Positions 8,662 to 30,835 of a stretch of 32,000 bases of DNA are shown here, piece after piece (position 1 is the first letter of the stretch; every line of letters begins with the position of its first letter). Location of the stretch: assembly GCA_047651235.1 (NCBI GenBank), contig CP178758.1, forward strand, positions 2,940,001 through 2,972,000, given 5' to 3'. Below the pieces are notes generated by a model. It had not been told where the DNA came from, searched no databases, and was given only the letters and a program-made list of their open reading frames with translations. Origin of the DNA: Candidatus Electrothrix yaqonensis. GTDB taxonomy: Bacteria > Desulfobacterota > Desulfobulbia > Desulfobulbales > Desulfobulbaceae. The position numbers and the translations under genes are program-made.

Positions 8662-10791
8662 TCAATCCTTTTTATCATCCGGTTCGATAACCGCCGGTCC
8701 GCTCTGTAGAACAACACAGCCCATCGGCGCAACCTGAACCCGGCTTCCGATTGGTACTTGGCGGGCCGTGTCAAAATCAACAAAGTCAGTTGGAGCATTC
8801 CGGTCAGTATCAATGATTTTTCTCCAGACAATATTCTGTGCTAATGACACTGACCCGGCTTCCGGGACAATGAACTGGACAGTATGTTCATCAGAATGCC
8901 CGTTAAGCATAATAAAAAAATTAGCGTCGCTCCCGCCGCTTTTCAGAAGAAAGGACAGGGTATGGGTGTGCTCGGACCAGTCCTGCTCTCCCGGATGCAG
9001 GGCCTGCCAGATAATTTCCGGGCCAGCAGCGTGCTGTCCCGGGCCGGCAGCTTGAAAAAAATCCTTCCGTCGAAAAATTGCATGATCACGGCGCAGCCGG
9101 ATCAGTTTCCGGAAAAAGCGGACTTGACCTTTCTTTTTTTTCGCCAGCTTCCAGTCGAGCCAGTTGAGTTCATTATCCTGGCACCAGGGATTATTGTTGC
9201 CGTGCCGGGTGTGACCGAACTCATCACCGGCCACCAGCATGGGCACGCCCTGAGAAAGGAGGAGAATGACCGCCATAGTTTTGATCCGGCGTCGCCGCAG
9301 TCGCTGAATACAGCGGTCACCCGTGGGCCCTTCCGCGCCGGAATTCCAGCTCAGATTGTTGTTTTCCCCGTCCTGGTTGTCTTCCCCGTTGGCCAGATTG
9401 TGTTTCCCGTTATAACTCATCAGATCAAACAGAGTAAATCCGTCGTGACTGGTGATGAAATTGACGGAATTCCACGGCTTGCGGCCGTGCTGCTCATACA
9501 GGTCCGAACTGCCGGCAATCCGGGTCGCCAAGGCGGAAACCATGCCCGGTGTGCCGTTCATGAACATGCGGACATCGTCCCGGAATCGACCGTTCCATTC
9601 TGCCCAGCGGGGATGATGCGAAAAATGGCCGACTTGGTACAGTCCGGCAGCATCCCAGGCTTCAGCAATGATTTTCGTCTTCGCCAGCACAGGGTCTTCC
9701 GCGATCCGCTCCACCACCGGCGGATTGCTCAGGACATTGCCCTCCTGATCTCTGGTCAGGATGGAGGCAATATCAAACCGGAATCCGTCCACATGCATCT
9801 CCGTGACCCACCAGCGCAGGGAATGCAGGATCAGACTGCGGACAATAGGATGATTGCAGTTGCAGGTATTGCCGCAGCCGGAAAAATTAAGATATTCCTT
9901 GGTTGCTGGATCCAGCAGATAATAGATAGGATTGTCGATGCCGCGCAACGAGGTGGTTCTGCCGCCCCAACCGCCCTCTGCCGTATGATTAAAGACCATG
10001 TCCAGGATAACCTCGATACCGGCCCGGTGCAGGGCCTTGACCATATCCCGGAATTCCCGCAGCGGATGGCCGCTGTCTGAAGAATAGGCAGCCTTGGGGG
10101 CAAAAAAGGAGAGTGGACTGTAGCCCCAGTAATTCTTCAGCTGTTCACCAGTTTCTGGGTTGCGGAACGGGCAGTCGGTTTCATCAAACTCGGTGACCGG
10201 CATGAGCTCGATAGCGGTTATTCCCAGCTCTTTGAGATAGGGTATCTTTTCCGTAATCCCCCGATATGTTCCGGGAAAGCTGCATTTTGATGAAGCATGG
10301 CGGGTAAAGCCGCGGACATGCAGCTCATAAATAATGGTATCCTGCAGAGGAACGTTCAACGGCCGGTCACCTTCCCAGTCATAAGCATCCAGCGGTATCA
10401 GGCCGCAGGTCTGCCTGCTGATACCAGAGCGATCCTCTCCCCAGCGCGGCGAACGGACTTCTTTGGCATACGGGTCCAGTATGATCAGAGTATCATCATA
10501 GGCAAGGCCGCCGGCGTGCCGTCCTTTAAGGCCGGACAGTCTGTAGCCGTACCGGAGGATGTGGTGAGGCGGCAGCCCGTTGACCAGGATATGCCAGACA
10601 TCTCCAGTTTTGTTGCTTTTCGGGTCCAATTCAATTTCAAATTTATCTGCATCGCAGTCCTCCTTCACCCCCAGGACCAAGGATACCTTTTCAGCATGAC
10701 GGGAAAAAAGAGCAAAATTAATACCTGTCGGGGTGACGGTTGCGCCGAACGGCTGAGGAGAACCGGAAAATGTAGGGAAATTGATTTTCAT
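8662..10791 (-). CDS. glgX: Glycogen debranching enzyme GlgX (GH13 isoamylase-type)
   Basis: 709 aa. GH13 conserved regions VILDMVFNHT, DGFRFDIAS, IAEAWD and FITSHDGFTL, plus an N-terminal CBM48-like PFGATVTPTGINFALFS. Confidence 0.92.
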   Translation of the reverse strand: MKINFPTFSGSPQPFGATVTPTGINFALFSRHAEKVSLVLGVKEDCDADKFEIELDPKSNKTGDVWHILVNGLPPHHILRYGYRLSGLKGRHAGGLAYDDTLIILDPYAKEVRSPRWGEDRSGISRQTCGLIPLDAYDWEGDRPLNVPLQDTIIYELHVRGFTRHASSKCSFPGTYRGITEKIPYLKELGITAIELMPVTEFDETDCPFRNPETGEQLKNYWGYSPLSFFAPKAAYSSDSGHPLREFRDMVKALHRAGIEVILDMVFNHTAEGGWGGRTTSLRGIDNPIYYLLDPATKEYLNFSGCGNTCNCNHPIVRSLILHSLRWWVTEMHVDGFRFDIASILTRDQEGNVLSNPPVVERIAEDPVLAKTKIIAEAWDAAGLYQVGHFSHHPRWAEWNGRFRDDVRMFMNGTPGMVSALATRIAGSSDLYEQHGRKPWNSVNFITSHDGFTLFDLMSYNGKHNLANGEDNQDGENNNLSWNSGAEGPTGDRCIQRLRRRRIKTMAVILLLSQGVPMLVAGDEFGHTRHGNNNPWCQDNELNWLDWKLAKKKKGQVRFFRKLIRLRRDHAIFRRKDFFQAAGPGQHAAGPEIIWQALHPGEQDWSEHTHTLSFLLKSGGSDANFFIMLNGHSDEHTVQFIVPEAGSVSLAQNIVWRKIIDTDRNAPTDFVDFDTARQVPIGSRVQVAPMGCVVLQSGPAVIEPDDKKD

Positions 10792-13612: not shown

Positions 13613-15355
13613 ATGAAAAAAATATTCTTTCTTCTGTGTTGTATCTGCCTTATCGGAGCAGCAGTGTACCTGATCCAGCACCCTGCCCCTCCTGACGTCG
13701 AGCCTGATTATTCTGCTGATTATCTGCCGGAAGATACCCTGTTTCTTTTGGAGCTTACTGACCTGCAGGGGATGACGGAACGTTTTCCCGCATCAGCTCT
13801 GGGCAGACTTTTTTCCAAGCCGGTTATGTATGATATTCTGCGTGAACTGGGAGGCACTGACGAAGATGTACAGCAATACGACAACCTGTATGACGGTCTG
13901 GCCGATGTGCTGACCAATCCGGCTGTCCGGGAAATCTTTGGGGATGATGCGGTCATTGCCCTGCATGCTCCTGATCCGGCGCAGCTCAGACAGAACCCGA
14001 TCAGGGCATTGCAGGACTCCCTGCTGGTTTTCGGCACCTCATCCACGGCAGGCCCCATAGGTCGAGTTGCCCGTGTCATCATGAGTAACGATGTGATCAA
14101 AACATCAATTTCCGGTCTTGACATGACCCGGATCAGACTGGATGAGAATGAACTGCTGTACGGATATACGAAAAAGGGTATTCTTCTTCTGGCCTACGAT
14201 CCGAAAAAAATTGTTGCGGCCGTTCACCGGAAAGAGGATGAAAACGGAAAAGACCTCCGGCAGGCAGTGCCGTTTGCAGCAACTGCGGAATTCCGGGCTG
14301 AAGCCGGGCAGGGGCATGTCTATGCCCGGACCTATCTCAATACAACAGAGCTGAAAACGCTGCTGCGGGCTTCCGGGAACCAGGAACTGAGCCGGGAGCA
14401 GAAAGAAGCCAATGCGTCTCTGGAAGGAGTAACAGCTATCAGCGGTGTGCTTGCCGCAACGCAGGGAGAGCTTCGCCTGCGCGCACAGGCGGAATATGAT
14501 ACCTCCTCCCTGCCGGAAACGGCGAAAGATAGCCATAAAGCATTGCCGGAGAAAAATTTTTCTCTTTCCCTGCTCAACGAAAAGACACTGCTCTATTCCT
14601 GGTTCTCCGCGCTGAACAACGAGGCTGTCCGCCGTCTTCTGTTTAAAGCTGATGCGGAACAGAAGTATGCTGAATTTCAGGAAACGGTGCAGAAGGAACT
14701 TGGCCTGTCTCTTGACCGGCTCATCAAGGCTGCAGGGCCGCAGGCCGGGATAGCAGTTCATGAAATCATCAATGCAGGCATAGTGCCTCTGCCCAAAACG
14801 GTCCTGTTTTTCCAGATACGCGACCGCACGGCTGTTCTGCAGGAAATGAAAAAACTGCGCAAAAAAATTACCGAACAGGGGTTTGCCAAAGAACAGAAAG
14901 AGGAAATTCAGGGGCACACCCTTTATTATTGGACCGTTATGCCGATCGAGGCCACGCATCTGGCCATTGGGCTGACCGACACCATGCTCTATATCGCCAA
15001 CGGCGAGACCGGCCTCAGGGCACTGCTTACCAGCCAACAGGAACCGACAGCTCTGGACAAGACTGCAGCTACTGCATTCGGGGAAACGGCAGGGCAGTGC
15101 ATTGCCGGGGCCAATCAGTTCACCTTTCTCCTCCGTCCGCAGCTGCTCGCGGAACAGGGCGGTACAGCTGCAGACTGGCTCGCCGACATGACCCTGTCCG
15201 ACAGCAATATTTCTATAAAAAAGACCTTAGAGGCAGTGCTGCAACTGATGCGGTCTGTTGACCTTGTTGCGGTCTGCAGTGACCGGGAAGAAGACCATGC
15301 TTCCTTTACGGCAGTCCTGCAAAATGCAGCTGAACTCGGACAGAAAGCGCAATAA
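13613..15355 (+). CDS. Hypothetical N-terminally anchored/secreted protein (possibly DUF3352-like)
   Basis: 580 aa. Hydrophobic N-terminus MKKIFFLLCCICLIGAAVYLI. No catalytic motif recognised. The family assignment is a recollection-level guess. Confidence 0.65.
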   Translation: MKKIFFLLCCICLIGAAVYLIQHPAPPDVEPDYSADYLPEDTLFLLELTDLQGMTERFPASALGRLFSKPVMYDILRELGGTDEDVQQYDNLYDGLADVLTNPAVREIFGDDAVIALHAPDPAQLRQNPIRALQDSLLVFGTSSTAGPIGRVARVIMSNDVIKTSISGLDMTRIRLDENELLYGYTKKGILLLAYDPKKIVAAVHRKEDENGKDLRQAVPFAATAEFRAEAGQGHVYARTYLNTTELKTLLRASGNQELSREQKEANASLEGVTAISGVLAATQGELRLRAQAEYDTSSLPETAKDSHKALPEKNFSLSLLNEKTLLYSWFSALNNEAVRRLLFKADAEQKYAEFQETVQKELGLSLDRLIKAAGPQAGIAVHEIINAGIVPLPKTVLFFQIRDRTAVLQEMKKLRKKITEQGFAKEQKEEIQGHTLYYWTVMPIEATHLAIGLTDTMLYIANGETGLRALLTSQQEPTALDKTAATAFGETAGQCIAGANQFTFLLRPQLLAEQGGTAADWLADMTLSDSNISIKKTLEAVLQLMRSVDLVAVCSDREEDHASFTAVLQNAAELGQKAQ

Positions 15356-19365: not shown

Positions 19366-20202
19366 TTACTGCATGATTTTCAGCGGCAGGGCTTTGCTGT
19401 CTGCTTTGCCGTGCGCCAGCAGCCGGGTAAAGAACTCTTCCAGAGCCTGCTGCTTGCGCGGGTCAAGATCGTATTCCATAGCTTGGAGATAACAGAGGCA
19501 GGCATCTTTGTCCATAGGAATACGCCGGGCCGCCTGTCTGCTGATCGCCGGTAGCCGGGCCAGCCCCTGATCGCGGCAGGTCAGCAGTGCCTGATGGATT
19601 TCCCGCGCTGCTGCTGGTTCTGCCTGAAGAAAATCCTCCCGCACGGCACAGACGGCAAAGACAAAGGGCAGGTCGGTATGCCGGTGCCAGAATTCTCCTA
19701 AATCCAGCTGCACCGGATACTGTTTTTCCATAGCCAGCCGCAGGGCATCGTCACCGATCGCCAGTACTGCTTCAGGCCGCTCTCCGTGGTCATGGTCCTG
19801 CGGCTGCGGTGCAGAAATATCTCCCCGCAGATACTGCGGCCTGACAGCAAAAAAATCTTCCAGAATAATCTGCAGCAGCCGGACCGAAGTATCGGACTGG
19901 CCGGTCAGCAGCACCGGCCTGCTGTCCAGCTGCTCCGGCGGCACCGAGGAAAAAAGGAACACACTGCCCACCGGGCCGGTGGCGGCAATGGAAAGATCCG
20001 CCATAATGCGGTACTGTTGCGGTCGAACGGCATATTCAATCGAGGAAACAAAGCCGAGGTCAAGTTCACCCGCTGCCAGCAGCCGGTTCAGCTCCACAGG
20101 CGGTGCCTCGGTCACCAGCCAGTCCGGTCGATGCACCTGCTCCTTCCATACCTCGTAGATAGGTGCGGTGTTGATATAGTTGACCATGCCGATGCGGGCC
20201 AT
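19366..20202 (-). CDS. mqnA: Chorismate dehydratase MqnA (futalosine pathway)
   Basis: 278 aa. VitK2-biosynthesis/PBP-like fold with N-terminal RIGMVNYINTAPIY. It lacks the SPCPND motif of MqnD. Confidence 0.8.
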   Translation of the reverse strand: MARIGMVNYINTAPIYEVWKEQVHRPDWLVTEAPPVELNRLLAAGELDLGFVSSIEYAVRPQQYRIMADLSIAATGPVGSVFLFSSVPPEQLDSRPVLLTGQSDTSVRLLQIILEDFFAVRPQYLRGDISAPQPQDHDHGERPEAVLAIGDDALRLAMEKQYPVQLDLGEFWHRHTDLPFVFAVCAVREDFLQAEPAAAREIHQALLTCRDQGLARLPAISRQAARRIPMDKDACLCYLQAMEYDLDPRKQQALEEFFTRLLAHGKADSKALPLKIMQ

Positions 20203-20223
20203 CTTTCTTTCTCTCTGCTGATT

Positions 20224-21453
20224 TTAAAGCAGATGCACATCCCCGCCGCCCTGCTGCACCGAATGCACTAAATACTCCTGCACCGCTGAGAGGTTGCGGA
20301 TGGCTTCAGGCAGCTCTGCAGCTATTATTGCCGCCTCTTTTCCCGCCTCCAGCGAACCGAGCACCCTGTCCAGGCCGAGGGCCTGCGCCCCGCCCAGCGT
20401 TGCCATGCGCAGGATATCCGCCGGAGCAATGCCCGGATGATCCTCGGCCAGCAGGCGCATTTCCCGCCACAGGGAAAGTTCCGGATTGCTGGTCAGGCTG
20501 TCCGTGCCCAGGGCAGGCAGGATACCGTTACGCAGATACTTCTCTGCCGGGGCCTTGCCCACGCCCAGATAGCGGTTGCTGCTCGGACAAAGGCAGACCC
20601 TAGCGCCGTTCTCAGCCAGCAGATCAATCTCCTGCTCTGTAACTTGAATACAATGTACACAAAGTGTCCTTCTGTCAAGCAGGCTGTGGCGATGCAGATA
20701 AGTTACTGAACCTTCGCTGCCTCTGCCGAGCGGTTGAAAGGAATCATTCCAGAAACCCCGTTGTTCGAGAAAGTCCCGTATCTCCCCGGTCCCTTGATTA
20801 ATCAATGTATTTTCCGCTGCAGGCTCAGCAACATGAATGGGAAAAATATGACCCAACCGCCCTGCCCTGCTTTTCAACGCCCGCAGCAGATCAGGATGGG
20901 TGGAATACGGGGCATGGCCGGTGCAGGGCTGCACTCCTTCTTTTGCCAGCCCTTTCAGAGCCATTGTAACTTCATCTGCCCGCAGACCGAGGTATTCCTT
21001 AAAGCAGAGCAGCCTACCGGTAAAAGCAGAGGAAAAATTTCTGGTCAGGCCGCTGTTGGAGATGTCCGCTATCGCCACCACGCCCTGTCGCTGCTGCTCA
21101 GTCAGGGCAGTACGGGCTGCTGCTGCTGCGATAGTCTCGGTATCATCGGCAACTTTGGCCCGTTCTGCCAGCATCTGCGCAATCCAGCCGGTAAAGGTCG
21201 GCGGCGCGGGTTGGCGGGAAAGATATGCAAGATGGGAGAGTTCCAAGTGGGTGTGGGCGTTGATCAGGCCGGGCAGGAGCACGGCATCCGGATGATCAAG
21301 TACGGCTGCGTCCGGATGACGGCGAAGAACCTCGCTGAACCGGCTGACCGCGCATATTTTTCCTGCCCGAAGCGCTACCCCGCCATCCTGAATCGGCGGA
21401 CGGCTGATGGGCAGGACCCAAGGCGCACGATGGACAGCAAGCGGAGAATCCAC
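20224..21453 (-). CDS. Amidohydrolase-superfamily deaminase (candidate aminodeoxyfutalosine deaminase)
   Basis: 409 aa. Metal motif LINAHTHLE and an MtaD/guanine-deaminase-like layout. The GTG start abuts the stop of the upstream radical SAM gene (TAAGTG). The specific function is inferred from its position inside the mqn operon. Confidence 0.75.
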   Translation of the reverse strand: MDSPLAVHRAPWVLPISRPPIQDGGVALRAGKICAVSRFSEVLRRHPDAAVLDHPDAVLLPGLINAHTHLELSHLAYLSRQPAPPTFTGWIAQMLAERAKVADDTETIAAAAARTALTEQQRQGVVAIADISNSGLTRNFSSAFTGRLLCFKEYLGLRADEVTMALKGLAKEGVQPCTGHAPYSTHPDLLRALKSRAGRLGHIFPIHVAEPAAENTLINQGTGEIRDFLEQRGFWNDSFQPLGRGSEGSVTYLHRHSLLDRRTLCVHCIQVTEQEIDLLAENGARVCLCPSSNRYLGVGKAPAEKYLRNGILPALGTDSLTSNPELSLWREMRLLAEDHPGIAPADILRMATLGGAQALGLDRVLGSLEAGKEAAIIAAELPEAIRNLSAVQEYLVHSVQQGGGDVHLL

Positions 21454-22530
21454 TTATTCTGCCGAAGTGTAATCCATCAGCCGTTGCTCCGGTGTGAATC
21501 CGGCATCCGTGACCAGACGGCGGATTTCCTGCTCAGACAGGCGAAAATGCACCCCGGCAGCAGCCACCACATTTTCCTCAATCATGGTGGAGCCAAAATC
21601 ATTGGCCCCGAAAAACAGGGAGAGCTGGGCAATCTTCGGCCCCTGCGTCACCCAGGACGCCTGAATGTTCGCGAAGTTATCGAGAAAGATACGGCTCAGG
21701 GCCAGCATGCGCAGATAGGTAACGGCTGAGGTCTTTTCCCCGTTCACGGTTTCCGCCAAGGCGGTGTTGTCCGGCTGAAAGGGCCAGGGAATAAAAGCGG
21801 TAAAACCGCCGGTCCGGTCCTGGAGGTCGCGCAGCCGTTGGAGATGCTCCAGCCGTTCCTCCCAGGTTTCCACATGACCGAACATCATGGTCGCGGTGGT
21901 GCGCATTCCCAAAGTATGCGCCTGTTCCATGACCGAAATCCACTTATCAGCGGAACACTTGCGCGGAGCAAGCTGCTGCCGCACCCGGTCAGAAAGGATC
22001 TCTGCTCCGCCGCCTGGGATGGAATCCAGGCCCGCAATCATGAGCCGCTCCAGCACCGTTCTGATGGACAAGCCGGAAAGTTCGGCAAAATGACAGATTT
22101 CCGGCGGGGAAAAACCGTGGATGTGGATACCGGTGGCCTTCATGAAACGAAGCATATCTTCGTAAAACGCCAGCGGCAGGTCAGGATGCAGGCCGCCCTG
22201 GAGGAGGATCTGGGTGCCGCCGAGTTCCTGGGTTTCGCGGATTTTCCGGAGCAGCTCCTCCCTGCGTAGCACACTGCCCTGCGGGTCTTCCGGGGCCTTA
22301 AAAAAAGCGCAGAACTTACAGGCCGAGATGCAGATATCAGTGTAGTTGATATTGCGGTCAATGACGTAGGTGACCTTGGGTTCCGGATGCAGCCGTTTAC
22401 GCACGGCGTCGGCCATAAAGCTGAGCCGGTAGAGGTCGGCCTTTTCAGCGAGAAAAAGGAATTCTTCACCGGTGATCCGGTCTCCGGCTGTAATTTTATC
22501 TGTTATTTCCTGCATAGATTTATTGTGCAT
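21454..22530 (-). CDS. mqnC: Radical SAM menaquinone biosynthesis enzyme, MqnC-like (MqnE not excluded)
   Basis: 358 aa. CISACKFCAF (CX3CX2C), IDRNINYTDIC, IHGFSPPEI and IPGGGAEIL. The HGFSPPEI segment looks more MqnC-like than MqnE-like from memory. Confidence 0.8.
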   Translation of the reverse strand: MHNKSMQEITDKITAGDRITGEEFLFLAEKADLYRLSFMADAVRKRLHPEPKVTYVIDRNINYTDICISACKFCAFFKAPEDPQGSVLRREELLRKIRETQELGGTQILLQGGLHPDLPLAFYEDMLRFMKATGIHIHGFSPPEICHFAELSGLSIRTVLERLMIAGLDSIPGGGAEILSDRVRQQLAPRKCSADKWISVMEQAHTLGMRTTATMMFGHVETWEERLEHLQRLRDLQDRTGGFTAFIPWPFQPDNTALAETVNGEKTSAVTYLRMLALSRIFLDNFANIQASWVTQGPKIAQLSLFFGANDFGSTMIEENVVAAAGVHFRLSEQEIRRLVTDAGFTPEQRLMDYTSAE

Positions 22531-22788: not shown

Positions 22789-23345
22789 TTAAAGCCGTTC
22801 TGACGGAACAGCGGCATAATTCCACTTCGGCAGAAACCCGTCGAATTGAATTTTCATATTTTCTTTAAAACCGTCAGCCGTTTTGCGGCCTGTCTCGAAG
22901 AGGAATTCAGATTTTCCATGTGTCGTCCACCAGTTCCGAATACAGGCGCACCCGAATTCGGAGGTGTCACCGCTTGTCCCTAATGTGATACAACCGATAT
23001 TACTGTATATATCATACAGTCCATAGGCGAACCCGCCGTGTGTTTTTTCAGCACTGCGAAAAATGCGTCATCAAGGCCGACGGCGGTCGAGAGGACGGAT
23101 TTACGTCCCCCGCCCGGTTTGCGGATTCGTTCCTCTTTTTCAGGCAGAGGCTGTTTCAGCTCCTCAATCCCGCGACGGACCCGGTCAGAATCACACCGCA
23201 ACATGTCGCATATATACGTTATGCCGCCGTATCCGAACTTTTCCGCTTCAACTGCGGCGTATCGACGGCGGTCTTTTTCAGACAGGCTGCCGTAAAAATT
23301 ACGCATTCGCGTTTCTATCTCAGGAGAATATGTTTTTATCTTCAT
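22789..23345 (-). pseudogene. ISAzo13-family transposase remnant with internal deletion and frameshift
   Basis: The N-terminal 105 aa or so (RRRYAAVEAEKFGYGGITYI...RIRKPGGGRKSVL...HTAGSPMD) match the ISAzo13 HTH region and then stop at 22980. A different frame (22959..22789) encodes a C-terminal tail ...GRKTADGFKENMKIQFDGFLPKWNYAAVPSERL*, like the family's conserved xEWNYTIxP end. The DDE core of about 300 aa is missing. Confidence 0.75.
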
Positions 23346-23471
23346 AACCGGATGAGAATAAACGCAACTATGAAATTGTCAATGACCTGTCAGCAAGTTC
23401 CGTTGTTATTAAATTTTCATTCATAGCCCGGCTGAAAATAAACACTGTCGGCTCCGCTTCCGAGGCAGGCA

Positions 23472-23711
23472 TTGGCCGAAAGATTTTCCGAGAGCTATTT
23501 TGGCTTGATTCTCGATGACCTGCGCTGTCTCCCCGACCGAACAACGTGGTTTTCTCTGCTTCGTGAACTGCTGCTTCCTTCAGGCGATGAATTGGCAGCA
23601 AAATACGGGCAGGAGGAGCTGCGCCCGTTAGAGAAAAAAATACGTCTGCCTCTGCTTTATGCCCGCTATCTGCTGGTCGGACTGCTGAAACGGGTTGTCC
23701 GCCTGCAGTGA
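23472..23711 (+). CDS. Orphan 79-aa ORF, possibly a gene fragment
   Basis: GC-rich ORF with a TTG start and no SD, lying between the IS remnant and the AT-rich block. No family recognised. Confidence 0.2.
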   Translation: MAERFSESYFGLILDDLRCLPDRTTWFSLLRELLLPSGDELAAKYGQEELRPLEKKIRLPLLYARYLLVGLLKRVVRLQ

Positions 23712-23988
23712 CAGGGAGAGCCGGACGCCCGGGCTGCAGCCCGCCTTTCCCCGTTTCCCGCCTTTACTACTGTTGAGTGCTTCTGATCCAGTCTTATTTT
23801 TTCAAGCTGATTGATCTGTTGGATTGTTTTGTGAAAGGAATTTCCTGGTTCGAGGCAAAGACTTCAATCATCCGTAATGCTGTGTAACTCCTAGCGGGGA
23901 AGGAAAAGCAGGGTCTGGAAATCTTCAGATGCTTTCAGGGAATAAATCTGATTATTATTCTTATAATTTTAATATTATCAAATAAATA

Positions 23989-24053
23989 TTGACTTCGTGC
24001 GTCATTAGGTTTAACGTCGGCAAAATTAGGTTGAAGCGGATAACTGAAGTTAT
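23989..24053 (+). promoter_or_regulatory. Candidate promoter (TTGACT-17-TAACGT) plus a 14-bp palindrome ATAACTGAAGTTAT
   Basis: -35-like at 23989-23994 and a weak -10 at 24012-24017. A perfect palindrome at 24040-24053 lies between them and the AAGGAG SD of the NTF2-like gene. The region is very AT-rich. Confidence 0.3.
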
Positions 24054-24096
24054 CTTATCCAGCCGTATAAAAAAAACTATACTAAAGGAGATCAAG

Positions 24097-24540
24097 ATGA
24101 ATGCTACACAATTAGCTGCTGTAACCACTGATCCTGCCAGCAAAGCTGTCCTTGAGTTTCTGTCGGTTCTTGAAACCAAAAAAGTAGATAACTTATTAAG
24201 CATATGGGACGAAAATGGTATTTTTGAACTGCCTTTTTCTCATAAAGGAATACCAAGTTTATATCACCCAAAATTTGAAGGACGGCAATGTATCTATGAA
24301 CTCTTCCAAGCATTGCTCCCTGGTGAGAGTTTTAAATTTAAGGAGATTGCATTGTATCCAATGATCAATCAAGAATATGTTTTCATTGAATTCATAGGTG
24401 ATATTACACAACTGGACCGAGGTATAAAATATACGAATCGGTATTGTGCATTAGCGCATACTCGAAAAGGAAAAATTTTATTATTCAGGGAATATTTCCA
24501 TGCAATTATACGACAAAACTTTGAAGCAAGTGGCTTTTGA
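24097..24540 (+). CDS. NTF2-like / SnoaL-like fold protein
   Basis: 147 aa starting at an ATG 6 nt after AAGGAG (the track ORF begins upstream at 23989). Size and pattern (FLSVLETKKVDNLLSIWDENGIFELPF ... YVFIEF ... KILLFREYF) fit the SnoaL/ketosteroid-isomerase-like cone fold. Confidence 0.65.
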   Translation: MNATQLAAVTTDPASKAVLEFLSVLETKKVDNLLSIWDENGIFELPFSHKGIPSLYHPKFEGRQCIYELFQALLPGESFKFKEIALYPMINQEYVFIEFIGDITQLDRGIKYTNRYCALAHTRKGKILLFREYFHAIIRQNFEASGF

Positions 24541-24634
24541 CATTGCAGGTGATATGGATGAACGAATGAACGAATAATTTTGTCATACCTAATGAGCAGT
24601 AACTCTGTAACAGCCTCAACATAGGAAAAGAAAA

Positions 24635-25885
24635 ATGAAAGCCTGTCAATTGAAGTTGAACACACCCGTATTCGAGCGAGAAGTGGTTGATACAAAAAGA
24701 ACTAACAGTTACTGGGTTGAAGCCTTTGATATAGACGGAGACGGTAAATCTGATCTGCTTGGTTACGGATTGGGAGACTCCCAGATTTATACGTTTAGAA
24801 ATCCGACTTGGGAAAAAAGGCTCATTGCTCAGCTGAAAGGAGCTGTCGGAATGGATCATGCTGATATTAACCAGAATGGTTTGAATGATGTGGTGATCTG
24901 TTATCAGTACGGAGCAACAATGCGGGATTGTGATCCGGAAGGTGGAAAAATTGTATGGCTGGAAAACCCTGGCACCCCGGACGGAGAATGGAAGCATCAT
25001 TATATCGGCAGAGCAACGGCCATGCATCGTTTACGAGTCGGGTATTTTACGCAGACCGAAAAACTTGAGGTATTAGGGTTGCCGATCGTAGGAAAACCTG
25101 GAGACATCTATTCAGATGTACCGGTGGTGCTGTTTACGCAGCCAGATGACCTCAGCACTGCTCAGGAATGGAACAGGACGATTATCAATGACAGTTATTA
25201 CCATATCATTCATGGTGTTTCTAAAAAGAAATTTAATAAATCCAGGAATGGCTCAGAACTCGATTCAGTCATCCTGGCCTCCCAGGAAGGTATTTCATGG
25301 TTGTATTATGATCAAGAACAGCGGAATTGGAAAATCGAGCTGCTTGGCCAAGGTGAACAAGAAGAATTTAAACTGACAGGATACCGGGGAAGTGGCAACT
25401 TGGATGCAGGCAAAATAGGCGACGATGACTTCGCTTATATTCCAACGGTGGAACCGTTTCATGGGAACAGAATTGCTGTTTATGTAAAAAGAACAGCGTC
25501 CCTTTTAAACTCAGTACGCTGGAAGCGCTTTGTCCTGGATACGTTTAAAGATCCAGATGATCATGGTGAGGGGCCTGGTCATCATGTAGTTTGTGCAGAC
25601 TTTGACGGAGACGGTGATGACGAATTCCTAGTTGCACTGCGAGGACCTAAACCTTGGCAGGGAGTCTACTGCTACAAGGCTATTGATCTGCAGAACGGAG
25701 TTTTTGTTAAATGGCATATCACGCAGGATTCTGCTGCAAGGATTGCCTTGGCCGATTTCAATGGAGACGGTCGTCTTGACTTTGCCACTATGGGGTATTG
25801 GGTCCCGGGATATTACCAGACTGAACAGCCTGAGATCGTCGTTTTTAGAAATGCTTTTGCTGAACCGGGTAGAAAGAATGGATGA
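24635..25885 (+). CDS. FG-GAP/VCBS-repeat beta-propeller protein (candidate aldos-2-ulose dehydratase-like propeller)
   Basis: 416 aa with no signal peptide. Repeated Ca-binding-type loops FDIDGDGKSDLL, ADINQNGLNDVV, ADFDGDGDDEFL and ADFNGDGRLDFA, spaced about 55-60 aa apart, are consistent with a 7-bladed propeller. Confidence 0.85.
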   Translation: MKACQLKLNTPVFEREVVDTKRTNSYWVEAFDIDGDGKSDLLGYGLGDSQIYTFRNPTWEKRLIAQLKGAVGMDHADINQNGLNDVVICYQYGATMRDCDPEGGKIVWLENPGTPDGEWKHHYIGRATAMHRLRVGYFTQTEKLEVLGLPIVGKPGDIYSDVPVVLFTQPDDLSTAQEWNRTIINDSYYHIIHGVSKKKFNKSRNGSELDSVILASQEGISWLYYDQEQRNWKIELLGQGEQEEFKLTGYRGSGNLDAGKIGDDDFAYIPTVEPFHGNRIAVYVKRTASLLNSVRWKRFVLDTFKDPDDHGEGPGHHVVCADFDGDGDDEFLVALRGPKPWQGVYCYKAIDLQNGVFVKWHITQDSAARIALADFNGDGRLDFATMGYWVPGYYQTEQPEIVVFRNAFAEPGRKNG

Positions 25886-25937
25886 TCCTGCAACGAATTT
25901 GGCAGATCAAGGTACATACTCAGGAGGATAAATCAAG

Positions 25938-26657
25938 ATGACTGCTGCATACAACAAGGTAACATCCGTCAACTTTGCAAGCGAACATATAACAGCATAC
26001 GCTGTCAGCAACGTGCGGGATTTTCACATCAATAAACGCTCTATTGTTGTGAATATGGGATCGGAACTGATCTATTTTGATGAAGAGCCCAAGAAGGGAC
26101 TGTTACCCAGAAAATCAACGATCCTACAGAACAAAAGGATAGAATCGGCTGTGTTGGTCATGGTGCTTGAGGTCCACAGCAGGATCAATCTCGGCAATGT
26201 GATTCTCGGCAAAGAGTGGGACAGCGCGGAAAATTTATTCGGGGATGCCCTGAAAGGTGTGCCTCTATGGAAATCTCCTCAGGTTGAAATAGGAAAAATT
26301 ACACTCAATCCTTTTGCTGCGTTGGGCCAAGAACAGCAGGGAGATGCTGCGGTTACTTTCAACATCAAGGTCAACATCTGGTTTACTACTGAGTGTGCCA
26401 ACTGCACTATTCATAATCAGCATGATTTTATCGAATTTCATACCCAGATTGCCGGAACCGGTCGTATGCAGAAATTTTCCGACGATACGATTGACACCCT
26501 TTATGAAGATGTGATCCTAGGTGAAGGACAAAGCCACGATATATTCTGTACCGCCTTGGATGACGGTCGCAGCTTCAAGTATCCTTGGCACCAGTACTAT
26601 TCAGATACAGACTGTATCTGGATGGCTACGGAGTTACATCCCCTGCCTGCTCTTTAA
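25938..26657 (+). CDS. Cupin-like metalloprotein, unknown function
   Basis: 239 aa. AGGAGG SD. The C-terminal half has a cupin-type ligand pattern H159-N-Q-H162-D-F-I-E166-F-H168...G-T-G (nt 26412-26441), followed by GEGQSHDIF and YPWHQYY. Confidence 0.6.
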   Translation: MTAAYNKVTSVNFASEHITAYAVSNVRDFHINKRSIVVNMGSELIYFDEEPKKGLLPRKSTILQNKRIESAVLVMVLEVHSRINLGNVILGKEWDSAENLFGDALKGVPLWKSPQVEIGKITLNPFAALGQEQQGDAAVTFNIKVNIWFTTECANCTIHNQHDFIEFHTQIAGTGRMQKFSDDTIDTLYEDVILGEGQSHDIFCTALDDGRSFKYPWHQYYSDTDCIWMATELHPLPAL

Positions 26658-26761
26658 ACGGGCTGGTCGAACATGTTGATGTATGTCGCTATGAGATTAC
26701 CCATTCATGGCGGCATTACCGATCCGGCAGTTAGATGAATACGGGCAAATCTTGCGAGATA

Positions 26762-26839
26762 ATAACTAACTGAAATAAAAAATAAGTTATCAATACATAC
26801 TATAGCTCAAGTCAAATGACTTGACACCTAGGATATAAT
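26762..26839 (+). promoter_or_regulatory. AT-rich intergenic region with two inverted repeats and a TATAAT box
   Basis: ATAACT-N17-AGTTAT at 26762-26790. An 18-bp perfect palindrome TCAAGTCA-AA-TGACTTGA at 26807-26824. TATAAT at 26834-26839, only 3 nt before the ATG at 26843. Confidence 0.3.
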
Positions 26840-26842
26840 GGC

Positions 26843-27607
26843 ATGGAAAATTTTATGGCGATAGCCGTTTCTTCCTGGAAGGGAACATTAAGATTAATAA
26901 TAATTTTTACATGCTTCCTGCTGCTGCTGGCAGCTGTTGTATTCATTTTAGCGAACTTAGTTCATAAAACAGGTGCAGCAGTTTCTATATCAGGAACAAC
27001 AATTAGTATTGGGTCGAAAGAAAGGTTAGATTCTGCATTGGTAAATCCGATAAACTGGACAGATACAAAGATTGATATAAAGAAAGGAGATTGTTTTATT
27101 CTTGATGCAACAGGAAGTGTTAATGTTGCTCTGGGGCATATGAATCAGGCATTAGATACTTTTGCCGAGATTTCTTCCAGTAAAAAAGACATGAAAATTG
27201 AACTATTTACTGAAAAGGAAATAAAAAGATCTTTATTTCCTTTTCCTTGGAACGGTCCAGAAGGACTTAATCTGAAAGACGTAAATGATCAGAATGTGAT
27301 AGACCGAATTAAAACGTCACGTAACAGATTTATTCATCCCAATGGAGAGATAGGGCAACTATTAGCTTTCATCTCAACAAGTGGCAGCTGCCCAGATATA
27401 TATTCTCAAGAGGAACCGAAAGGAATGATTCATCCCTATTTCGGGCCAAGCACTACTCATACGGCCAAGGTGTCTGGAAGATTATGTTTCGTTATTAATG
27501 ACGTAACAACAGAAGAGGTAAAATATAAGAAATTGATCTGGCAAGATAATACTGGTTTTTTTTCAATAAAAATCCATATTAAGTCGAACAAAACCAGTTT
27601 ACTTTGA
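26843..27607 (+). CDS. Membrane-anchored protein with a PA-IL (LecA)-like lectin-fold domain
   Basis: 254 aa. One N-terminal TM helix (LRLIIIFTCFLLLLAAVVFILANLV). The pattern KKGDCFILDATGSVNVA ... IGQLLAFIS ... GRLCFVINDV...WQDNTGFFSIKIHI parallels LecA GDVITIVAAG ... GALVMKIG ... ITLIYNDV..YGNNSGSFSVNI. The start could instead be the ATG at 26855. Confidence 0.55.
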   Translation: MENFMAIAVSSWKGTLRLIIIFTCFLLLLAAVVFILANLVHKTGAAVSISGTTISIGSKERLDSALVNPINWTDTKIDIKKGDCFILDATGSVNVALGHMNQALDTFAEISSSKKDMKIELFTEKEIKRSLFPFPWNGPEGLNLKDVNDQNVIDRIKTSRNRFIHPNGEIGQLLAFISTSGSCPDIYSQEEPKGMIHPYFGPSTTHTAKVSGRLCFVINDVTTEEVKYKKLIWQDNTGFFSIKIHIKSNKTSLL

Positions 27608-27623
27608 ATTTCAGACAACCTAT

Positions 27624-27640
27624 CTGATTTGTTACGCAAC
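27624..27640. repeat. Fourth copy of the CTGAT..GTTACGCA motif
   Basis: CTGATTTGTTACGCAAC compared with CTGATGTTACGCAGC at 22594. It is in direct orientation, 58 nt upstream of the GH31 start. Confidence 0.5.
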
Positions 27641-27646
27641 AACCGA

Positions 27647-27664
27647 AAAAGGCAATAGCCTTTT
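27647..27664 (+). terminator. Weak hairpin with T-run after the lectin-like gene
   Basis: AAAAGGC-aata-GCCTTTT followed by ATTTAATAA. The stem has only 3 G:C pairs, so it is at most a leaky terminator. Confidence 0.3.
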
Positions 27665-27697
27665 ATTTAATAACCCAGCTTATGGAGGAAAAAAGCC

Positions 27698-30600
27698 GTG
27701 TCAACAATCATTTCGCCAGCAGATGCCGTTTTATCGGATCAGATTTTTTCTGAGCAGGAAGCGTATAAATTCCTTAAGGTTGAGCAGTATTTTTCCAGGT
27801 ACAAGGAATGGGACACCCTAGATACCGTCGCCTCCCATTCCTTTGATGCAGCAGCAAAATCTCTGGCCCTGAATTTTACCGAAAGTGACGACAAATCATG
27901 CAGCATGTGCATTCATTTCCTACAGAAGGACACGTTCCGGGTTCGTTTCAACCCAGGCAAAATAGCGGATGACTATACTGCTGAGAATACCCGTTCGGTC
28001 ATTCGCAATACGGTTGACGATCTGCAGAGACTGCTGGAACAGAAAGAACAATTCCAGATTGATGCAGCTGAAGGCAGCGGAAAGATCGAACTGACCACAA
28101 AGGGTGCTGACAATCAGCCTGTAATGCAGGTCGTGGTCACCCATGCTCCCTTTGCGATTCAGGTCTTCTGCTTTTTCCAAGGCGAAGCCTTCCAGGTCTG
28201 GCAGACAGCAGAAACGCCGATTTACTATACACCCAACGGCCGGGAAGATTATGCCGTGATTCAGGCTGTCACAAAGCCTGCCAGTGCAAAGTACATCGGC
28301 TTCGGCGAACAGGGAGGCCAGTCCCTGAGCAAGAATACCGCGCAGGTGAATTATTTCAATTTTGACAATATGCGGTATCGGCAGGTGTATAATCACGGTC
28401 CCTTGGATGTCCGGGAACCTCTGTATCACTCAGACCCGTTCTTTATGGAGTTCAACGGTGTACCTACACAGCAGAGCGTCAACGGTATATTTATTGATAA
28501 TCCCGGTCAGGTGCTCATGGATATCGGATACCTCAATTCCGGCCGCTATATGTTCGGCACCCGTTTCGGCGATCTGGACTATTATTTTTTCGCGGGTAAA
28601 AAGCCTGTCGATGTAGTCGATAGCTTTACGTCCATTGTGGGCAGATCCCGTCTGAAGCCGCGTTATTGTCTGGGCTATCATCAGGGCTGCTACGGCTATA
28701 ACAGGCGGGACATTCTGGAATGGGCTGTGCGAAGATACCGGGAATACCAGATTCCGCTGGATGGCCTGCATGTGGATGTGGATGTTCAGCATAAGTACCA
28801 GACCTTCACGATTGATGAGCAGAAATTTCCCAATCCGTATGAGATGTTTCATAACCTGAAAGAACAGGGAATAAAATGCAGCACCAACATCACGCCGGTC
28901 ATCAGCAGAGAAGATCCGAGATATTCAACGTATACTCAGGCCTTGGCCAACGATTATTTTGTTCGCGACAAGCGCTATGATCCAGCCAATCCTGAAAGCA
29001 AGTATTATCAGCTCTACGGCGGCGGCGGTGAATATTGCCCGAATAACGGTTGGGTTGACGGGTTCAACAGCGGTGAGCCGTATATTGGCGAGGTTTATTA
29101 CGGAAAGGATGGAGCCGGTCAGGATTTAGGCACATCGGGCCATTATGCCGACCTGGGCAGAAAAGAGGTGCGGCACTGGTGGGGCACCCAATACCAGTAC
29201 CTCTTTAATATGGGGTTGGAAATGGTCTGGCAGGACATGACCACCCCGGCTATCCGGGATAACCGGGGCGATATGAAAGGCTTTCCTTTCCGTTTACTGG
29301 TGACCGATGATTTTTATGGGGAAGCATCTGCCAAGCTGACTCCTGCCATCAAGGTGTGGAACCTATATTCTTATAATCTTCATAAGGCCACCTACCACGG
29401 ACTCAACAACCTGGAGGGCAGGGATAACAAACGCAATTTTATCATCGGGCGGGGCAGCTTTACCGGTTCGCACCGCTATGCCGGTCTGTGGACAGGGGAT
29501 AATTCTTCGGACTGGGATTTTTTGAAAATGAATGTATCCCAGGCCCTGTCCCTGGGAATGTGCGGCGTTGTGATCAACGGCCAGGATATCGGCGGATTTG
29601 AGGCATCAAATGCGGACGGCGGAAAATGGGCCAGCCCGGAACTTCTGATCCGCTGGACTGCTGCCGGTGCCTTTCTGCCGTGGTTCAGGAACCATTATGT
29701 CCGCAAGGGACGCAAAGAATTCCAGGAACCGTTTATGTATGAGGAATGGTTCCAGCAATATCGAGGCGGCCAGCTGCCTGAACCGCAGGATCTGTACCGT
29801 AATGTCCTGCCGATCTGCAAACATTACATTGAGCTGCGCTACCGTCTGCTCCAGCTCTTTTACGATGCAATGTTTGAAAATACCCTGACCGGTCGGCCTA
29901 TCTGTCGTCCCCTGTTCCTCAACGATCCTGATGACAAGTCGCTCTATAATGATAAGGAGTCCTTCTTGGATAACGAATTCTTTGTCGGCAAAGATCTCCT
30001 GATCGCTCCTGTTCTCGAACCCCAAGTTCAGAATAACAATCAGGGAAAAAGGGATGTGTATCTGCCATCAGGCAGTAACTGGTATTGTTTTATGGATAAT
30101 ACCATGCCGCTCGGACCTGCTGTTGACGGAGGCACTACGATAAGGGATTTTGATGCGAATATCAATACCAACGATAACCATATTCACTTCATTGTTCCGG
30201 CGTATGTACGTGCAGGGGCTGTTATCCCGACCATTGAGGTTGAACAGTACGTGGGCCAGCGCAACAAGGAAGGGCAGCCCAATTCGATTACGCTCAATAT
30301 TTATCCCGGTGCGGACGGAGAATACACCATGTATCTGGATGATGGAGAAAGCCGTTCCTCAGCTGATACGTCCGCCCATCCGGCTGAATTGGGCGGTGAT
30401 CCGCAGGCCAAGGGGGAGTATCGCAAGACAAAAATTACCCATACCGGCAACGGCAAGAAAACTCGACAAATTACAGTGGAACGTATCCATGACGGATACA
30501 CGCCCAAATTTGAAGACTATTTCTTTGTCGCTATTCTGCATGATCCCTCTGAAACAAAAGGGGCTTCAGGCTGTTTAAATAAGGTCAGCATAGACGGCCA

Positions 30601-30763
30601 GCAGATCGAATGCATCTCAGGAGGTACATCGGAACAGCGGAGCAACAGTTTATGGGCATCTCCCGGAAACGCATGGTATTACAACGAGGATATCAAGATT
30701 AGCTTCGTCAAGGTATCTGATAACAGTTCGAAAATTGTGATTAATGCGGAGTATGCTGAGTAA
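27698..30763 (+). CDS. Glycoside hydrolase family 31 enzyme with a lyase-type nucleophile motif (candidate alpha-1,4-glucan lyase)
   Basis: 1021 aa. GTG start 9 nt after GGAGG. No signal peptide. GH31 motifs MVWQDMTTPA (Asp513), RYAGLWTGDNSSDW (Asp601), GQDIGGF and RWTAAGAFLPWFRNHY. The family call is firm. Lyase activity is a hypothesis. Confidence 0.9.
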   Translation: MSTIISPADAVLSDQIFSEQEAYKFLKVEQYFSRYKEWDTLDTVASHSFDAAAKSLALNFTESDDKSCSMCIHFLQKDTFRVRFNPGKIADDYTAENTRSVIRNTVDDLQRLLEQKEQFQIDAAEGSGKIELTTKGADNQPVMQVVVTHAPFAIQVFCFFQGEAFQVWQTAETPIYYTPNGREDYAVIQAVTKPASAKYIGFGEQGGQSLSKNTAQVNYFNFDNMRYRQVYNHGPLDVREPLYHSDPFFMEFNGVPTQQSVNGIFIDNPGQVLMDIGYLNSGRYMFGTRFGDLDYYFFAGKKPVDVVDSFTSIVGRSRLKPRYCLGYHQGCYGYNRRDILEWAVRRYREYQIPLDGLHVDVDVQHKYQTFTIDEQKFPNPYEMFHNLKEQGIKCSTNITPVISREDPRYSTYTQALANDYFVRDKRYDPANPESKYYQLYGGGGEYCPNNGWVDGFNSGEPYIGEVYYGKDGAGQDLGTSGHYADLGRKEVRHWWGTQYQYLFNMGLEMVWQDMTTPAIRDNRGDMKGFPFRLLVTDDFYGEASAKLTPAIKVWNLYSYNLHKATYHGLNNLEGRDNKRNFIIGRGSFTGSHRYAGLWTGDNSSDWDFLKMNVSQALSLGMCGVVINGQDIGGFEASNADGGKWASPELLIRWTAAGAFLPWFRNHYVRKGRKEFQEPFMYEEWFQQYRGGQLPEPQDLYRNVLPICKHYIELRYRLLQLFYDAMFENTLTGRPICRPLFLNDPDDKSLYNDKESFLDNEFFVGKDLLIAPVLEPQVQNNNQGKRDVYLPSGSNWYCFMDNTMPLGPAVDGGTTIRDFDANINTNDNHIHFIVPAYVRAGAVIPTIEVEQYVGQRNKEGQPNSITLNIYPGADGEYTMYLDDGESRSSADTSAHPAELGGDPQAKGEYRKTKITHTGNGKKTRQITVERIHDGYTPKFEDYFFVAILHDPSETKGASGCLNKVSIDGQQIECISGGTSEQRSNSLWASPGNAWYYNEDIKISFVKVSDNSSKIVINAEYAE

Positions 30764-30791
30764 CGGATGATACAGGTACACTAGCTTGACA

Positions 30792-30835
30792 GAATCAGGG
30801 CGGAAGAAGGCTCCTCCTGTCCTGATTCCTTTTCC
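30792..30835 (+). terminator. Probable Rho-independent terminator after the GH31 gene
   Basis: GAATCAGG (30792-30799) pairs with CCTGATTC (30821-30828), extendable by G:C/G:U pairs, and is followed by CTTTTCC. Confidence 0.45.

What the first reader, a model, noticed from the sequence alone, without database searches (positions are those of the whole stretch)
24635..27607. Three consecutive genes reproduce the domain order and total size of fungal AUDH
The propeller (416 aa), cupin-like protein (239 aa) and lectin-fold protein (254 aa) total 909 aa. Fungal AUDH is described as a roughly 900-aa subunit with a seven-bladed propeller, cupin folds and a C-terminal lectin domain, in that order (Claesson et al., J Mol Biol 2012, recalled). 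In AUDH the propeller Zn site performs the dehydration and the cupin Zn site the isomerisation. Here the cupin-like protein carries an H-x2-H-x3-E-x-H cluster that could bind metal. This may be a split-gene ancestor or analogue of AUDH. The third gene differs in having a TM anchor, and its lectin fold (PA-IL-like) may not be the same as that of AUDH.
Basis: inference. Interest (0 to 1): 0.7.

Follow-up and report, generated by a model that had tools for sequence, protein, structure and literature searches.

The report
Split bacterial AUDH beside lyase-like GH31
Two of the three genes are a bacterial, two-gene version of the fungal sugar enzyme AUDH, sitting next to an enzyme that looks like the one making AUDH's substrate from glycogen. 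The third gene is an unrelated, lineage-specific membrane protein.

Summary
The three ORFs exist as described (416, 239 and 254 aa; window is Candidatus Electrothrix sp. YB6).

- **Gene 1** is a clear homologue of the AUDH beta-propeller: Pfam PF22301 at 2e-60 and PDB 4a7k at 2e-84. His155 and every other His shared with AUDH are conserved.
- **Gene 2** has no Pfam family, but it is a compact bicupin whose best PDB structural match is the AUDH bicupin (Foldseek 7e-10, TM 0.65, against about 0.3 for other bicupins). The profile comparison gives 97% probability. Its H-x2-H-x3-E-x-H plus YPWH cluster aligns with AUDH H630, E639, H641 and H709.
- **Gene 3** is not an AUDH lectin equivalent. It has one other homologue among 5.8 billion clusters, is absent from 80 related loci, is membrane-anchored, has no Pfam or PDB match, and could not be modelled. 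The 909-aa total is coincidence.

The real unit extends beyond the finding. The bicupin is adjacent to a roughly 1020-aa GH31 in 43 of 80 species and to the propeller in 26 of 80. That GH31's catalytic core best matches alpha-1,4-glucan lyase, with VWQDMTTPA where hydrolases have DMNE. A SnoaL-like gene recurs in the cluster.

Best reading: a bacterial anhydrofructose pathway, with the biochemistry inferred and untested.

The parts
24097..24540 (+). SnoaL/NTF2-like protein (147 aa from the ATG; the mechanical ORF starts at a TTG at 23989). Probable accessory member of the cluster; role unknown, possibly a tautomerase or isomerase.
   Evidence: Pfam SnoaL_2 at 7e-7. PDB YesE 1s5a at 6.5e-12. 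Homologues of 64-67% identity lie inside the same cluster in Pseudanabaena, Scytonema and Crocinitomicaceae.
24635..25885 (+). Stand-alone AUDH-type seven-bladed beta-propeller (416 aa). Predicted metal-dependent 1,5-anhydrofructose (aldos-2-ulose) dehydratase. No signal peptide by eye.
   Evidence: PF22301 AUDH_beta_propeller at 2.3e-60. PDB 4a7k at 2.3e-84, residues 10-406 aligned to 19-432. AUDH H155, H215, H295, H337, E38, E134 and E292 are invariant in a 42-sequence alignment.
25938..26657 (+). Compact bicupin (239 aa), a remote homologue of the AUDH two-cupin middle domain. Predicted metal site in the second barrel: H159, H162, E166, H168, H218.
   Evidence: No Pfam or PDB sequence hit. 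hhalign against a fused AUDH gives 96.5%, E 8e-10, and against P. chrysosporium AUDH 96.8%, E 3e-10. AlphaFold model pLDDT 96.3. The top Foldseek PDB hits are 4a7z and 4a7k, TM 0.63-0.65.
26843..27607 (+). Lineage-restricted, N-terminally membrane-anchored protein (254 aa) of unknown fold. A real gene, but not a conserved part of the system.
   Evidence: Only 2 clusters in the 5.8-billion-cluster database. dN/dS of 0.17 against the Electrothrix GM3_4 orthologue, which is also followed by the GH31. Absent from 80 related loci and from E. scaldis. Model pLDDT 37. No Pfam hit. GC 36%.
27698..30763 (+). GH31 enzyme (1021 aa) with an alpha-1,4-glucan-lyase-like active site. Predicted producer of 1,5-anhydrofructose from glycogen. 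No signal peptide by eye.
   Evidence: GH31 Pfam domains. The catalytic core's best PDB hit is alpha-1,4-glucan lyase 2x2h at 1e-31. Motif VWQDMTTPA against lyase VWQDMTVPA and hydrolase DMNE. The motif is conserved in 43 of 47 cluster-linked GH31s. This GH31 is adjacent to the bicupin in 43 of 80 species.

Best explanation
Genes 1 and 2 encode a split, two-polypeptide bacterial counterpart of fungal aldos-2-ulose dehydratase/isomerase (AUDH). One is a stand-alone AUDH-type beta-propeller and the other is a compact bicupin related to the AUDH cupin domain. Together with the downstream cytoplasmic GH31, which has a lyase-type rather than hydrolase-type nucleophile motif, and a SnoaL-like protein, they form a horizontally mobile cassette.

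Proposed mechanism (inferred, not shown):
1. The GH31 removes glucose units from intracellular alpha-1,4-glucan (glycogen) by elimination, giving 1,5-anhydro-D-fructose.
2. The propeller, using its conserved metal site and His131 (AUDH His155), dehydrates this to ascopyrone M.
3. The bicupin's second-barrel metal site isomerises it to a microthecin-type pyranone.
4. The NTF2-like protein may help a tautomerisation step.

Gene 3 is a later, Electrothrix-specific insertion encoding a membrane-anchored protein. It is not the equivalent of the AUDH lectin domain.
For: Shown by tool results:
- Propeller homology to AUDH: PF22301 at 2e-60, 4a7k at 2e-84. His155 and all shared His and Glu residues are invariant.
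- Bicupin homology to the AUDH cupins by profile and by structure, with AUDH the top PDB hit at TM 0.65 against about 0.3 for other bicupins.
- The conserved H/E cluster maps onto AUDH H630, E639, H641 and H709.
- Gene order is conserved across phyla: GH31-propeller-bicupin in Marinilabiliaceae and Paenibacillus. Among 80 species-level loci, 43 have the GH31, 26 the propeller and 16 both.
- A fused propeller+AUDH_Cupin protein on a eukaryote-like contig sits next to a GH31 that is 54% identical to this one and has the same motifs.
- The GH31 catalytic core is closest to alpha-1,4-glucan lyase and lacks the hydrolase Glu at nucleophile+3.

From the literature: all known glucan lyases are GH31, and AUDH-type chemistry converts anhydrofructose to ascopyrone and microthecin (PMC12441222).
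Against: - No activity is tested here.
- The GH31 has Thr, not the lyase's Val, at nucleophile+3. Equivalence of its Asn397 to lyase Asn459 could not be shown directly.
- The bicupin is very divergent from AUDH: about 22% identity, with only the C-terminal barrel aligned confidently, and AUDH His632 is Gln161 with His162 next to it.
- Many bicupin loci lack the propeller (27 of 80 have the GH31 only) or lack both partners (27 of 80), so the bicupin need not act after a propeller step.
- In Streptomyces, Xenorhabdus and Caballeronia the pair sits with an epimerase, SDRs and a BBE-type oxidase instead of a GH31. This implies a different keto-sugar substrate there.
Confidence: 0.6

Rival explanations
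1. The functional core is GH31 plus bicupin. The bicupin acts directly on the GH31 product (for example as an anhydrofructose dehydratase or tautomerase of its own), and the propeller is an optional add-on. 'Split AUDH' would then describe ancestry, but not the order of reactions.
For: The bicupin is adjacent to the GH31 in 43 of 80 loci, and 27 of those have no propeller within 10 kb, including Cylindrospermum and Electrothrix scaldis. The bicupin, not the propeller, is the common element of all contexts.
Against: Where a propeller is present, it is directly adjacent to the bicupin on the same strand, sometimes overlapping it. In eukaryotes the two are fused. A propeller could also be encoded elsewhere in the genomes that lack one nearby; this was not checked.
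Confidence: 0.25
2. The GH31 is an ordinary alpha-glucosidase or transglycosylase, and the propeller-bicupin pair processes some other 2-keto or unsaturated sugar (for example glucosone-like compounds made by an oxidase). There would be no anhydrofructose pathway.
For: Full-length GH31 PDB hits rank alpha-glucosidases first. NCBIfam gives sub-threshold alpha-glucosidase models. Nucleophile+3 is Thr, not Val. The pair occurs without a GH31 next to BBE-type oxidases and SDRs.
Against: The catalytic core ranks the lyase first. The Glu of the hydrolase DMNE motif is missing in all 43 cluster-linked GH31s that have a readable motif. The tight GH31-AUDH linkage is repeated in a eukaryote.
Confidence: 0.12
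3. One reading: all three genes together are the split equivalent of the AUDH propeller, cupin and lectin domains.
For: The gene order and the summed length (909 against 900 aa) match. A weak C-terminal motif resembles the lectin LecA (E 0.078 in a single comparison).
Against: Gene 3 has one homologue in 5.8 billion clusters and is absent from all 80 other loci and from E. scaldis. It has no hit to 4a7k even at E<=10 and no Pfam hit at E<=10. Its much lower GC (36%) suggests separate acquisition. It is membrane-anchored, while its neighbours lack signal peptides.
Confidence: 0.03

Closest known systems
Aldos-2-ulose dehydratase/isomerase (AUDH) of Phanerochaete chrysosporium (PDB 4a7k, 4a7y, 4a7z; Pfam PF22301 + PF18637)
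   Same: Same propeller family, with the proposed catalytic His155 and all shared His and Glu residues conserved. Same bicupin architecture, with the metal-type H/E cluster in the second barrel. Same N-to-C order (propeller, then cupins).
   Different: - Two separate polypeptides rather than one 900-aa chain.
- The bicupin is about 60 residues shorter, falls below the Pfam AUDH_Cupin threshold, and has H-x2-H in place of H-x-H.
- No lectin domain equivalent.
- Bacterial and cytoplasmic, and encoded next to its presumed substrate-forming enzyme.
Alpha-1,4-glucan lyase (EC 4.2.2.13), GH31, Gracilariopsis lemaneiformis (PDB 2x2h)
   Same: Best PDB match of the catalytic core. Shared VWQDMT-x-PA nucleophile motif lacking the hydrolase Glu, and a shared WxGDNS acid motif. 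Similar size of about 1020 aa.
   Different: Thr rather than Val at nucleophile+3. Bacterial. Over the full length, alpha-glucosidases score slightly higher. Lyase activity is untested, and known lyases are from red algae and fungi.
Fused propeller+AUDH_Cupin protein P0177 (728 aa) on a eukaryote-like metagenome contig
   Same: 56% identical propeller. It lacks the lectin domain. It lies next to a GH31 that is 54% identical to the window's and carries the same WQDMTTPA and STNITP motifs.
   Different: A single polypeptide with a canonical PF18637 cupin domain (E 7e-84), whereas the bacterial bicupin is a separate and highly diverged family.

Membership tests
AUDH beta-propeller (Pfam PF22301) | Significant match to the family model above its gathering score | tested here: met
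   203.9 bits against a cutoff of 27, E 2.3e-60. 4a7k E 2.3e-84 over residues 19-432.
AUDH beta-propeller (Pfam PF22301) | Proposed catalytic His155 (Claesson et al. 2012 abstract, recalled from memory) and conserved metal-type residues | tested here: met
   AUDH H155 corresponds to window H131. H215, H295, H337, E38, E134 and E292 are 98-100% conserved (E134 98%, the others 100%) in 42 sequences including AUDH. The identity of the actual Zn ligands could not be read from the paper, which is not held.
AUDH cupin domain (Pfam PF18637) | Match to the family model | tested here: not met
   No Pfam hit at E<=1 and no phmmer hit to 4a7k at E<=10. Only profile-profile comparison (96.5-96.8%) and structure detect the relationship. 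It is therefore a separate, related family.
AUDH cupin domain (Pfam PF18637) | Two-cupin fold most similar to AUDH | tested here: met
   AlphaFold model pLDDT 96.3. Foldseek top PDB hits are 4a7z and 4a7k, E 7e-10 and 1.5e-8, TMq 0.63-0.65, while other bicupins give about 0.3.
AUDH cupin domain (Pfam PF18637) | His/Glu metal cluster in the second cupin | tested here: inconclusive
   H159, E166, H168 and H218 align with AUDH H630, E639, H641 and H709. AUDH H632 is Gln161, with His162 adjacent. Metal binding itself cannot be tested here.
AUDH C-terminal lectin domain | Sequence or structural similarity of gene 3 to AUDH residues ~740-900 | tested here: not met
   No hit to 4a7k at E<=10. No Pfam hit at E<=10. 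The structural comparison was impossible because the model has pLDDT 37.
PA-IL / LecA-like lectin | Match to the family model or to the LecA sequence | tested here: not met
   No Pfam hit.
GH31 alpha-1,4-glucan lyase | Hydrolase Glu at nucleophile+3 (DMNE) replaced by a non-acidic residue (Val556 in the lyase; a Glu-to-Val switch confers lyase activity, per the Rozeboom et al. 2013 abstract, recalled from memory) | tested here: met
   Window VWQD513MTT516PA, against lyase VWQDMTVPA and hydrolase WNDMNEPA. 43 of 47 linked GH31s carry DMTT. The residue is Thr rather than Val.
GH31 alpha-1,4-glucan lyase | Asn459 hydrogen-bonded to the nucleophile (Ile in hydrolases; PMC12441222) | tested here: inconclusive
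   Window Asn397 (STNITP, present in 39 of 43) aligns with the Ile of Ro-alphaG1 and MGAM. No alignment to the lyase covered residue 459.
GH31 alpha-1,4-glucan lyase | Formation of 1,5-anhydrofructose from alpha-1,4-glucans | not testable with these tools
   Requires an enzyme assay.

The most novel reading that the evidence does not exclude
Bacteria from many phyla (cable bacteria, cyanobacteria, Bacteroidota, Firmicutes and others) would possess a previously unrecognised anhydrofructose pathway. It would consist of the first bacterial GH31 alpha-1,4-glucan lyases coupled to a two-subunit AUDH, whose bicupin subunit is an unannotated family of about 240 aa found in more than 300 species. The pathway would turn stored glycogen into antimicrobial pyranones such as microthecin or ascopyrones. 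The fused eukaryotic AUDH would derive from, or share ancestry with, this bacterial cassette.
Probability: 0.4. Interest if true: 0.7.

Novelty: new variant of a known kind. Interest (0 to 1): 0.58.

Why it matters
Glucan lyases and AUDH are described as enzymes of fungi and red algae. I found no paper in the held library that describes bacterial versions.

If the prediction holds, it would do four things:
- Give a function to a widespread 'hypothetical protein' family that has no Pfam model.
- Identify the first bacterial alpha-1,4-glucan lyases.
- Suggest that cable bacteria and many cyanobacteria can divert glycogen into antimicrobial or redox-active pyranones.
- Offer compact, separately expressible enzymes for making 1,5-anhydrofructose derivatives.

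It also bears on how the three-domain fungal enzyme was assembled.

Tried and rejected
- **Gene 2 by sequence:** direct sequence searches against Pfam, NCBIfam and PDB found nothing. Only profile and structure methods worked.
- **Gene 2 profile search:** a search of 1.84 billion representatives returned 244 hits. The 150 listed were all 454 aa or shorter, so no fused AUDH was visible in the list.
- **Gene 3:** a homologue search gave only one relative. The AlphaFold model was unusable (pLDDT 37), so no fold search was run. Pfam at E<=10 on the ectodomain was empty, the LecA comparison was insignificant, and PADLOC was empty.
- **Lyase Asn459:** three further PDB queries failed to give an alignment covering it.
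- **Papers not held:** the AUDH and glucan lyase structure papers and the GH31 review are not in the library.
- **Other scans:** promoter and terminator scans were at chance level. There are no tRNAs and no meaningful flanking repeats around the island.
- **Considered and rejected:** a defence system (no PADLOC hits), and the size match of 909 against 900 aa as meaningful.
Full report
**Observation**

The window comes from Candidatus Electrothrix sp. YB6, a cable bacterium; its proteins are 100% identical to NCBI entries of that genome. They sit in a low-GC stretch. The SnoaL-like gene is 35% GC, the propeller and bicupin genes 45%, gene 3 36% and the GH31 49%, against 54-59% for neighbouring housekeeping genes. 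A fragment of an ISAzo13 transposase lies at the left edge. This points to a horizontally acquired, mosaic cassette.

**Gene 1**

Gene 1 matches the AUDH-specific propeller model PF22301 at 2.3e-60, far better than generic FG-GAP models. It also matches the P. chrysosporium AUDH crystal sequence 4a7k at 2.3e-84 over AUDH residues 19-432.

I aligned 42 sequences: the window protein, 39 bacterial homologues, a fused homologue, and AUDH rebuilt from the alignment printed. AUDH His155, the residue proposed as the catalytic acid/base (abstract of Claesson et al. 2012, recalled from memory), corresponds to window His131 and is invariant. H215, H295, H337, E38, E134 and E292 are also conserved in at least 98% of the sequences.

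More than 700 homologues exist. Nearly all are stand-alone bacterial proteins of about 416 aa.

**Gene 2**

Gene 2 has no Pfam, NCBIfam or PDB sequence hit, but it belongs to a well-conserved family. 275 clusters are in the database, all 'hypothetical', and relatives were found in 317 of the stretches matched in the scan of species-representative genomes.

The family's invariant residues lie mostly in the C-terminal half: I-H-N-x-H...F-I-E-x-H-T-Q..G.G.MQKF...YPWHQY...C-I-W-x-A-x-E.

Several tests connect the family to AUDH:
- BLASTP against P0177, a 728-aa protein that carries both PF22301 and PF18637 (AUDH_Cupin), aligns residues 145-234 with the end of its cupin domain (E 0.002).
- hhalign of the family profile against P0177 gives 96.5% probability, E 8e-10.
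- hhalign against P. chrysosporium AUDH 433-732 plus P0177 gives 96.8%, E 3e-10. It aligns H159 with H630, E166 with E639, H168 with H641 and H218 with H709. AUDH H632 is Gln161 here, with His162 adjacent.
- An AlphaFold model built on the 65-sequence alignment is very confident (pLDDT 96.3). Its best Foldseek matches in the PDB are the two AUDH entries (E 7e-10 and 1.5e-8, TM 0.63-0.65 over about 297 columns). All other bicupins give a TM of about 0.3.

Gene 2 is therefore a compact bicupin specifically related to the AUDH middle domain, but diverged enough to be its own family.

**Gene 3**

- Only one other protein in 5.8 billion clusters resembles gene 3: a 78%-identical orthologue in Electrothrix GM3_4.
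- It is a genuine gene. dN/dS is 0.17, and in GM3_4 it is also followed by the GH31 start.
- It is absent from all 80 related loci. In Electrothrix scaldis the bicupin is followed directly by the GH31, 70 bp later.
- It has an N-terminal membrane anchor, whereas the other cluster proteins show no signal peptide (by eye from the sequence).
- It has no Pfam hit even at E<=10 and no hit to AUDH at E<=10. It shows only a weak C-terminal motif resemblance to LecA (E 0.078).
- Its model is unusable (pLDDT 37).

Gene 3 is not the counterpart of the AUDH lectin domain, and the 909 against 900 aa agreement is coincidental.

**Context**

Gene neighbourhoods show what the conserved unit is.
- Marinilabiliaceae and Paenibacillus have GH31-propeller-bicupin.
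- Cylindrospermum and E. scaldis have bicupin-GH31 only.
- Among the 80 best species-representative loci holding a bicupin, 43 have the large GH31 nearby on the locus, 26 have the propeller, 16 have both and 27 have neither. Three also carry a SnoaL-like gene 64-67% identical to the one at 24097-24540.
- In Streptomyces, Xenorhabdus and Caballeronia the bicupin-propeller pair instead sits with a UDP-GlcNAc-2-epimerase-like gene plus, in varying combinations, SDRs, a BBE-type FAD oxidase and an MFS transporter.
- The fused protein P0177 lies on a contig with kinesin and ion-channel exon-like fragments, so it is probably eukaryotic. It sits next to a GH31 that is 54% identical to the window's.

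**The GH31**

Over the full length, alpha-glucosidases score slightly higher. For the catalytic core, however, the best PDB match is alpha-1,4-glucan lyase 2x2h (1e-31).

The nucleophile motif is VWQDMTTPA. The lyase has VWQDMTVPA, and hydrolases have W-x-DMNE-PA. The missing Glu is the residue whose replacement by Val shifts a GH31 hydrolase toward lyase activity (Rozeboom et al. 2013 abstract, recalled from memory). A review likewise says that lyases lack the water-activating residues of hydrolases (PMC12441222).

All 43 cluster-linked GH31s with a readable motif carry DMTT.

The same review names Asn459, which is Ile in hydrolases, as a second hallmark. The window has Asn397 (STNITP) where Ro-alphaG1 and MGAM have Ile. 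I could not obtain an alignment to the lyase covering that residue, so this point stays inconclusive.

**Mechanism**

Homology, conserved residues and synteny are shown. The chemistry is inferred.

The likeliest scheme is a cytoplasmic anhydrofructose pathway: glycogen is converted to 1,5-anhydrofructose by the GH31, then to ascopyrone M by the propeller, then to a microthecin-type product by the bicupin. The NTF2-like protein may act as an auxiliary isomerase. A GlgX-like debranching enzyme 14 kb upstream shows glycogen metabolism in this genome.

The main rival is that the bicupin acts directly on the GH31 product and the propeller is optional, because many genomes pair only the bicupin and the GH31. 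A weaker rival is that the GH31 is a hydrolase and the pair acts on another keto-sugar.

**Novelty**

Searches of the held literature found AUDH and glucan lyases described only from fungi and red algae, and nothing on bacterial counterparts. This is a new variant of a known kind: a split architecture, a diverged bicupin family and a bacterial lyase-like GH31. It is not a new kind of system.

Noticed in passing
window 24097-24540 (+): A SnoaL/NTF2-like gene directly upstream of the propeller. Homologues of 64-67% identity occur inside the same cluster in Pseudanabaena (L014), Scytonema (L015) and Crocinitomicaceae (L012). It is probably a fourth pathway component.
   Followed up: partly
window 22980-23345 (-) and about 23400-30800: An ISAzo13-family transposase fragment lies at the edge of a low-GC island (35-49% against 54-59%). 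SnoaL and gene 3 are the most AT-rich, suggesting stepwise horizontal assembly. The propeller is 82% identical to one from a Marinilabiliaceae (Bacteroidota) genome.
   Followed up: partly
window 8662-10791 (-): A GlgX-like glycogen debranching enzyme (CBM48 plus alpha-amylase domain), 14 kb from the cluster.
   Followed up: no
window 19366-22530 (-): A futalosine-route menaquinone gene set: VitK2_biosynth/MqnA-like, an amidohydrolase, and a radical-SAM MqnC/E-like gene.
   Followed up: no
L061, L091, L092: A second conserved context for the bicupin-propeller pair in Streptomyces, Xenorhabdus and Caballeronia: UDP-GlcNAc-2-epimerase-like, bicupin, propeller, plus varying combinations of SDR(s), a BBE-type FAD oxidase and an MFS transporter. 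No GH31 is present. It may be a different keto-sugar or secondary-metabolite pathway.
   Followed up: partly
L088 10001-15587: A fused propeller+AUDH_Cupin protein (728 aa, no lectin domain) lies next to a lyase-like GH31 on a contig carrying kinesin and KCNQ-channel exon-like fragments, so the contig is probably eukaryotic.
   Followed up: partly
P0092; P0028 and P0045: One bicupin family member is annotated in the sea anemone Actinia tenebrosa, which could be transfer or contamination. Some cyanobacterial members (377 aa) are fused to PF19714 (DUF6209).
   Followed up: no
L027, L058: In Acidobacteriota the bicupin stands without a GH31 or propeller. In L027 it lies beside a TPP-dependent enzyme, a histidinol-dehydrogenase-like gene and a GntR regulator. 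L058 has ORFs of matching size and order, which were not scanned.
   Followed up: no
window 13613-15355 (+): A 580-aa ORF with no Pfam match.
   Followed up: no
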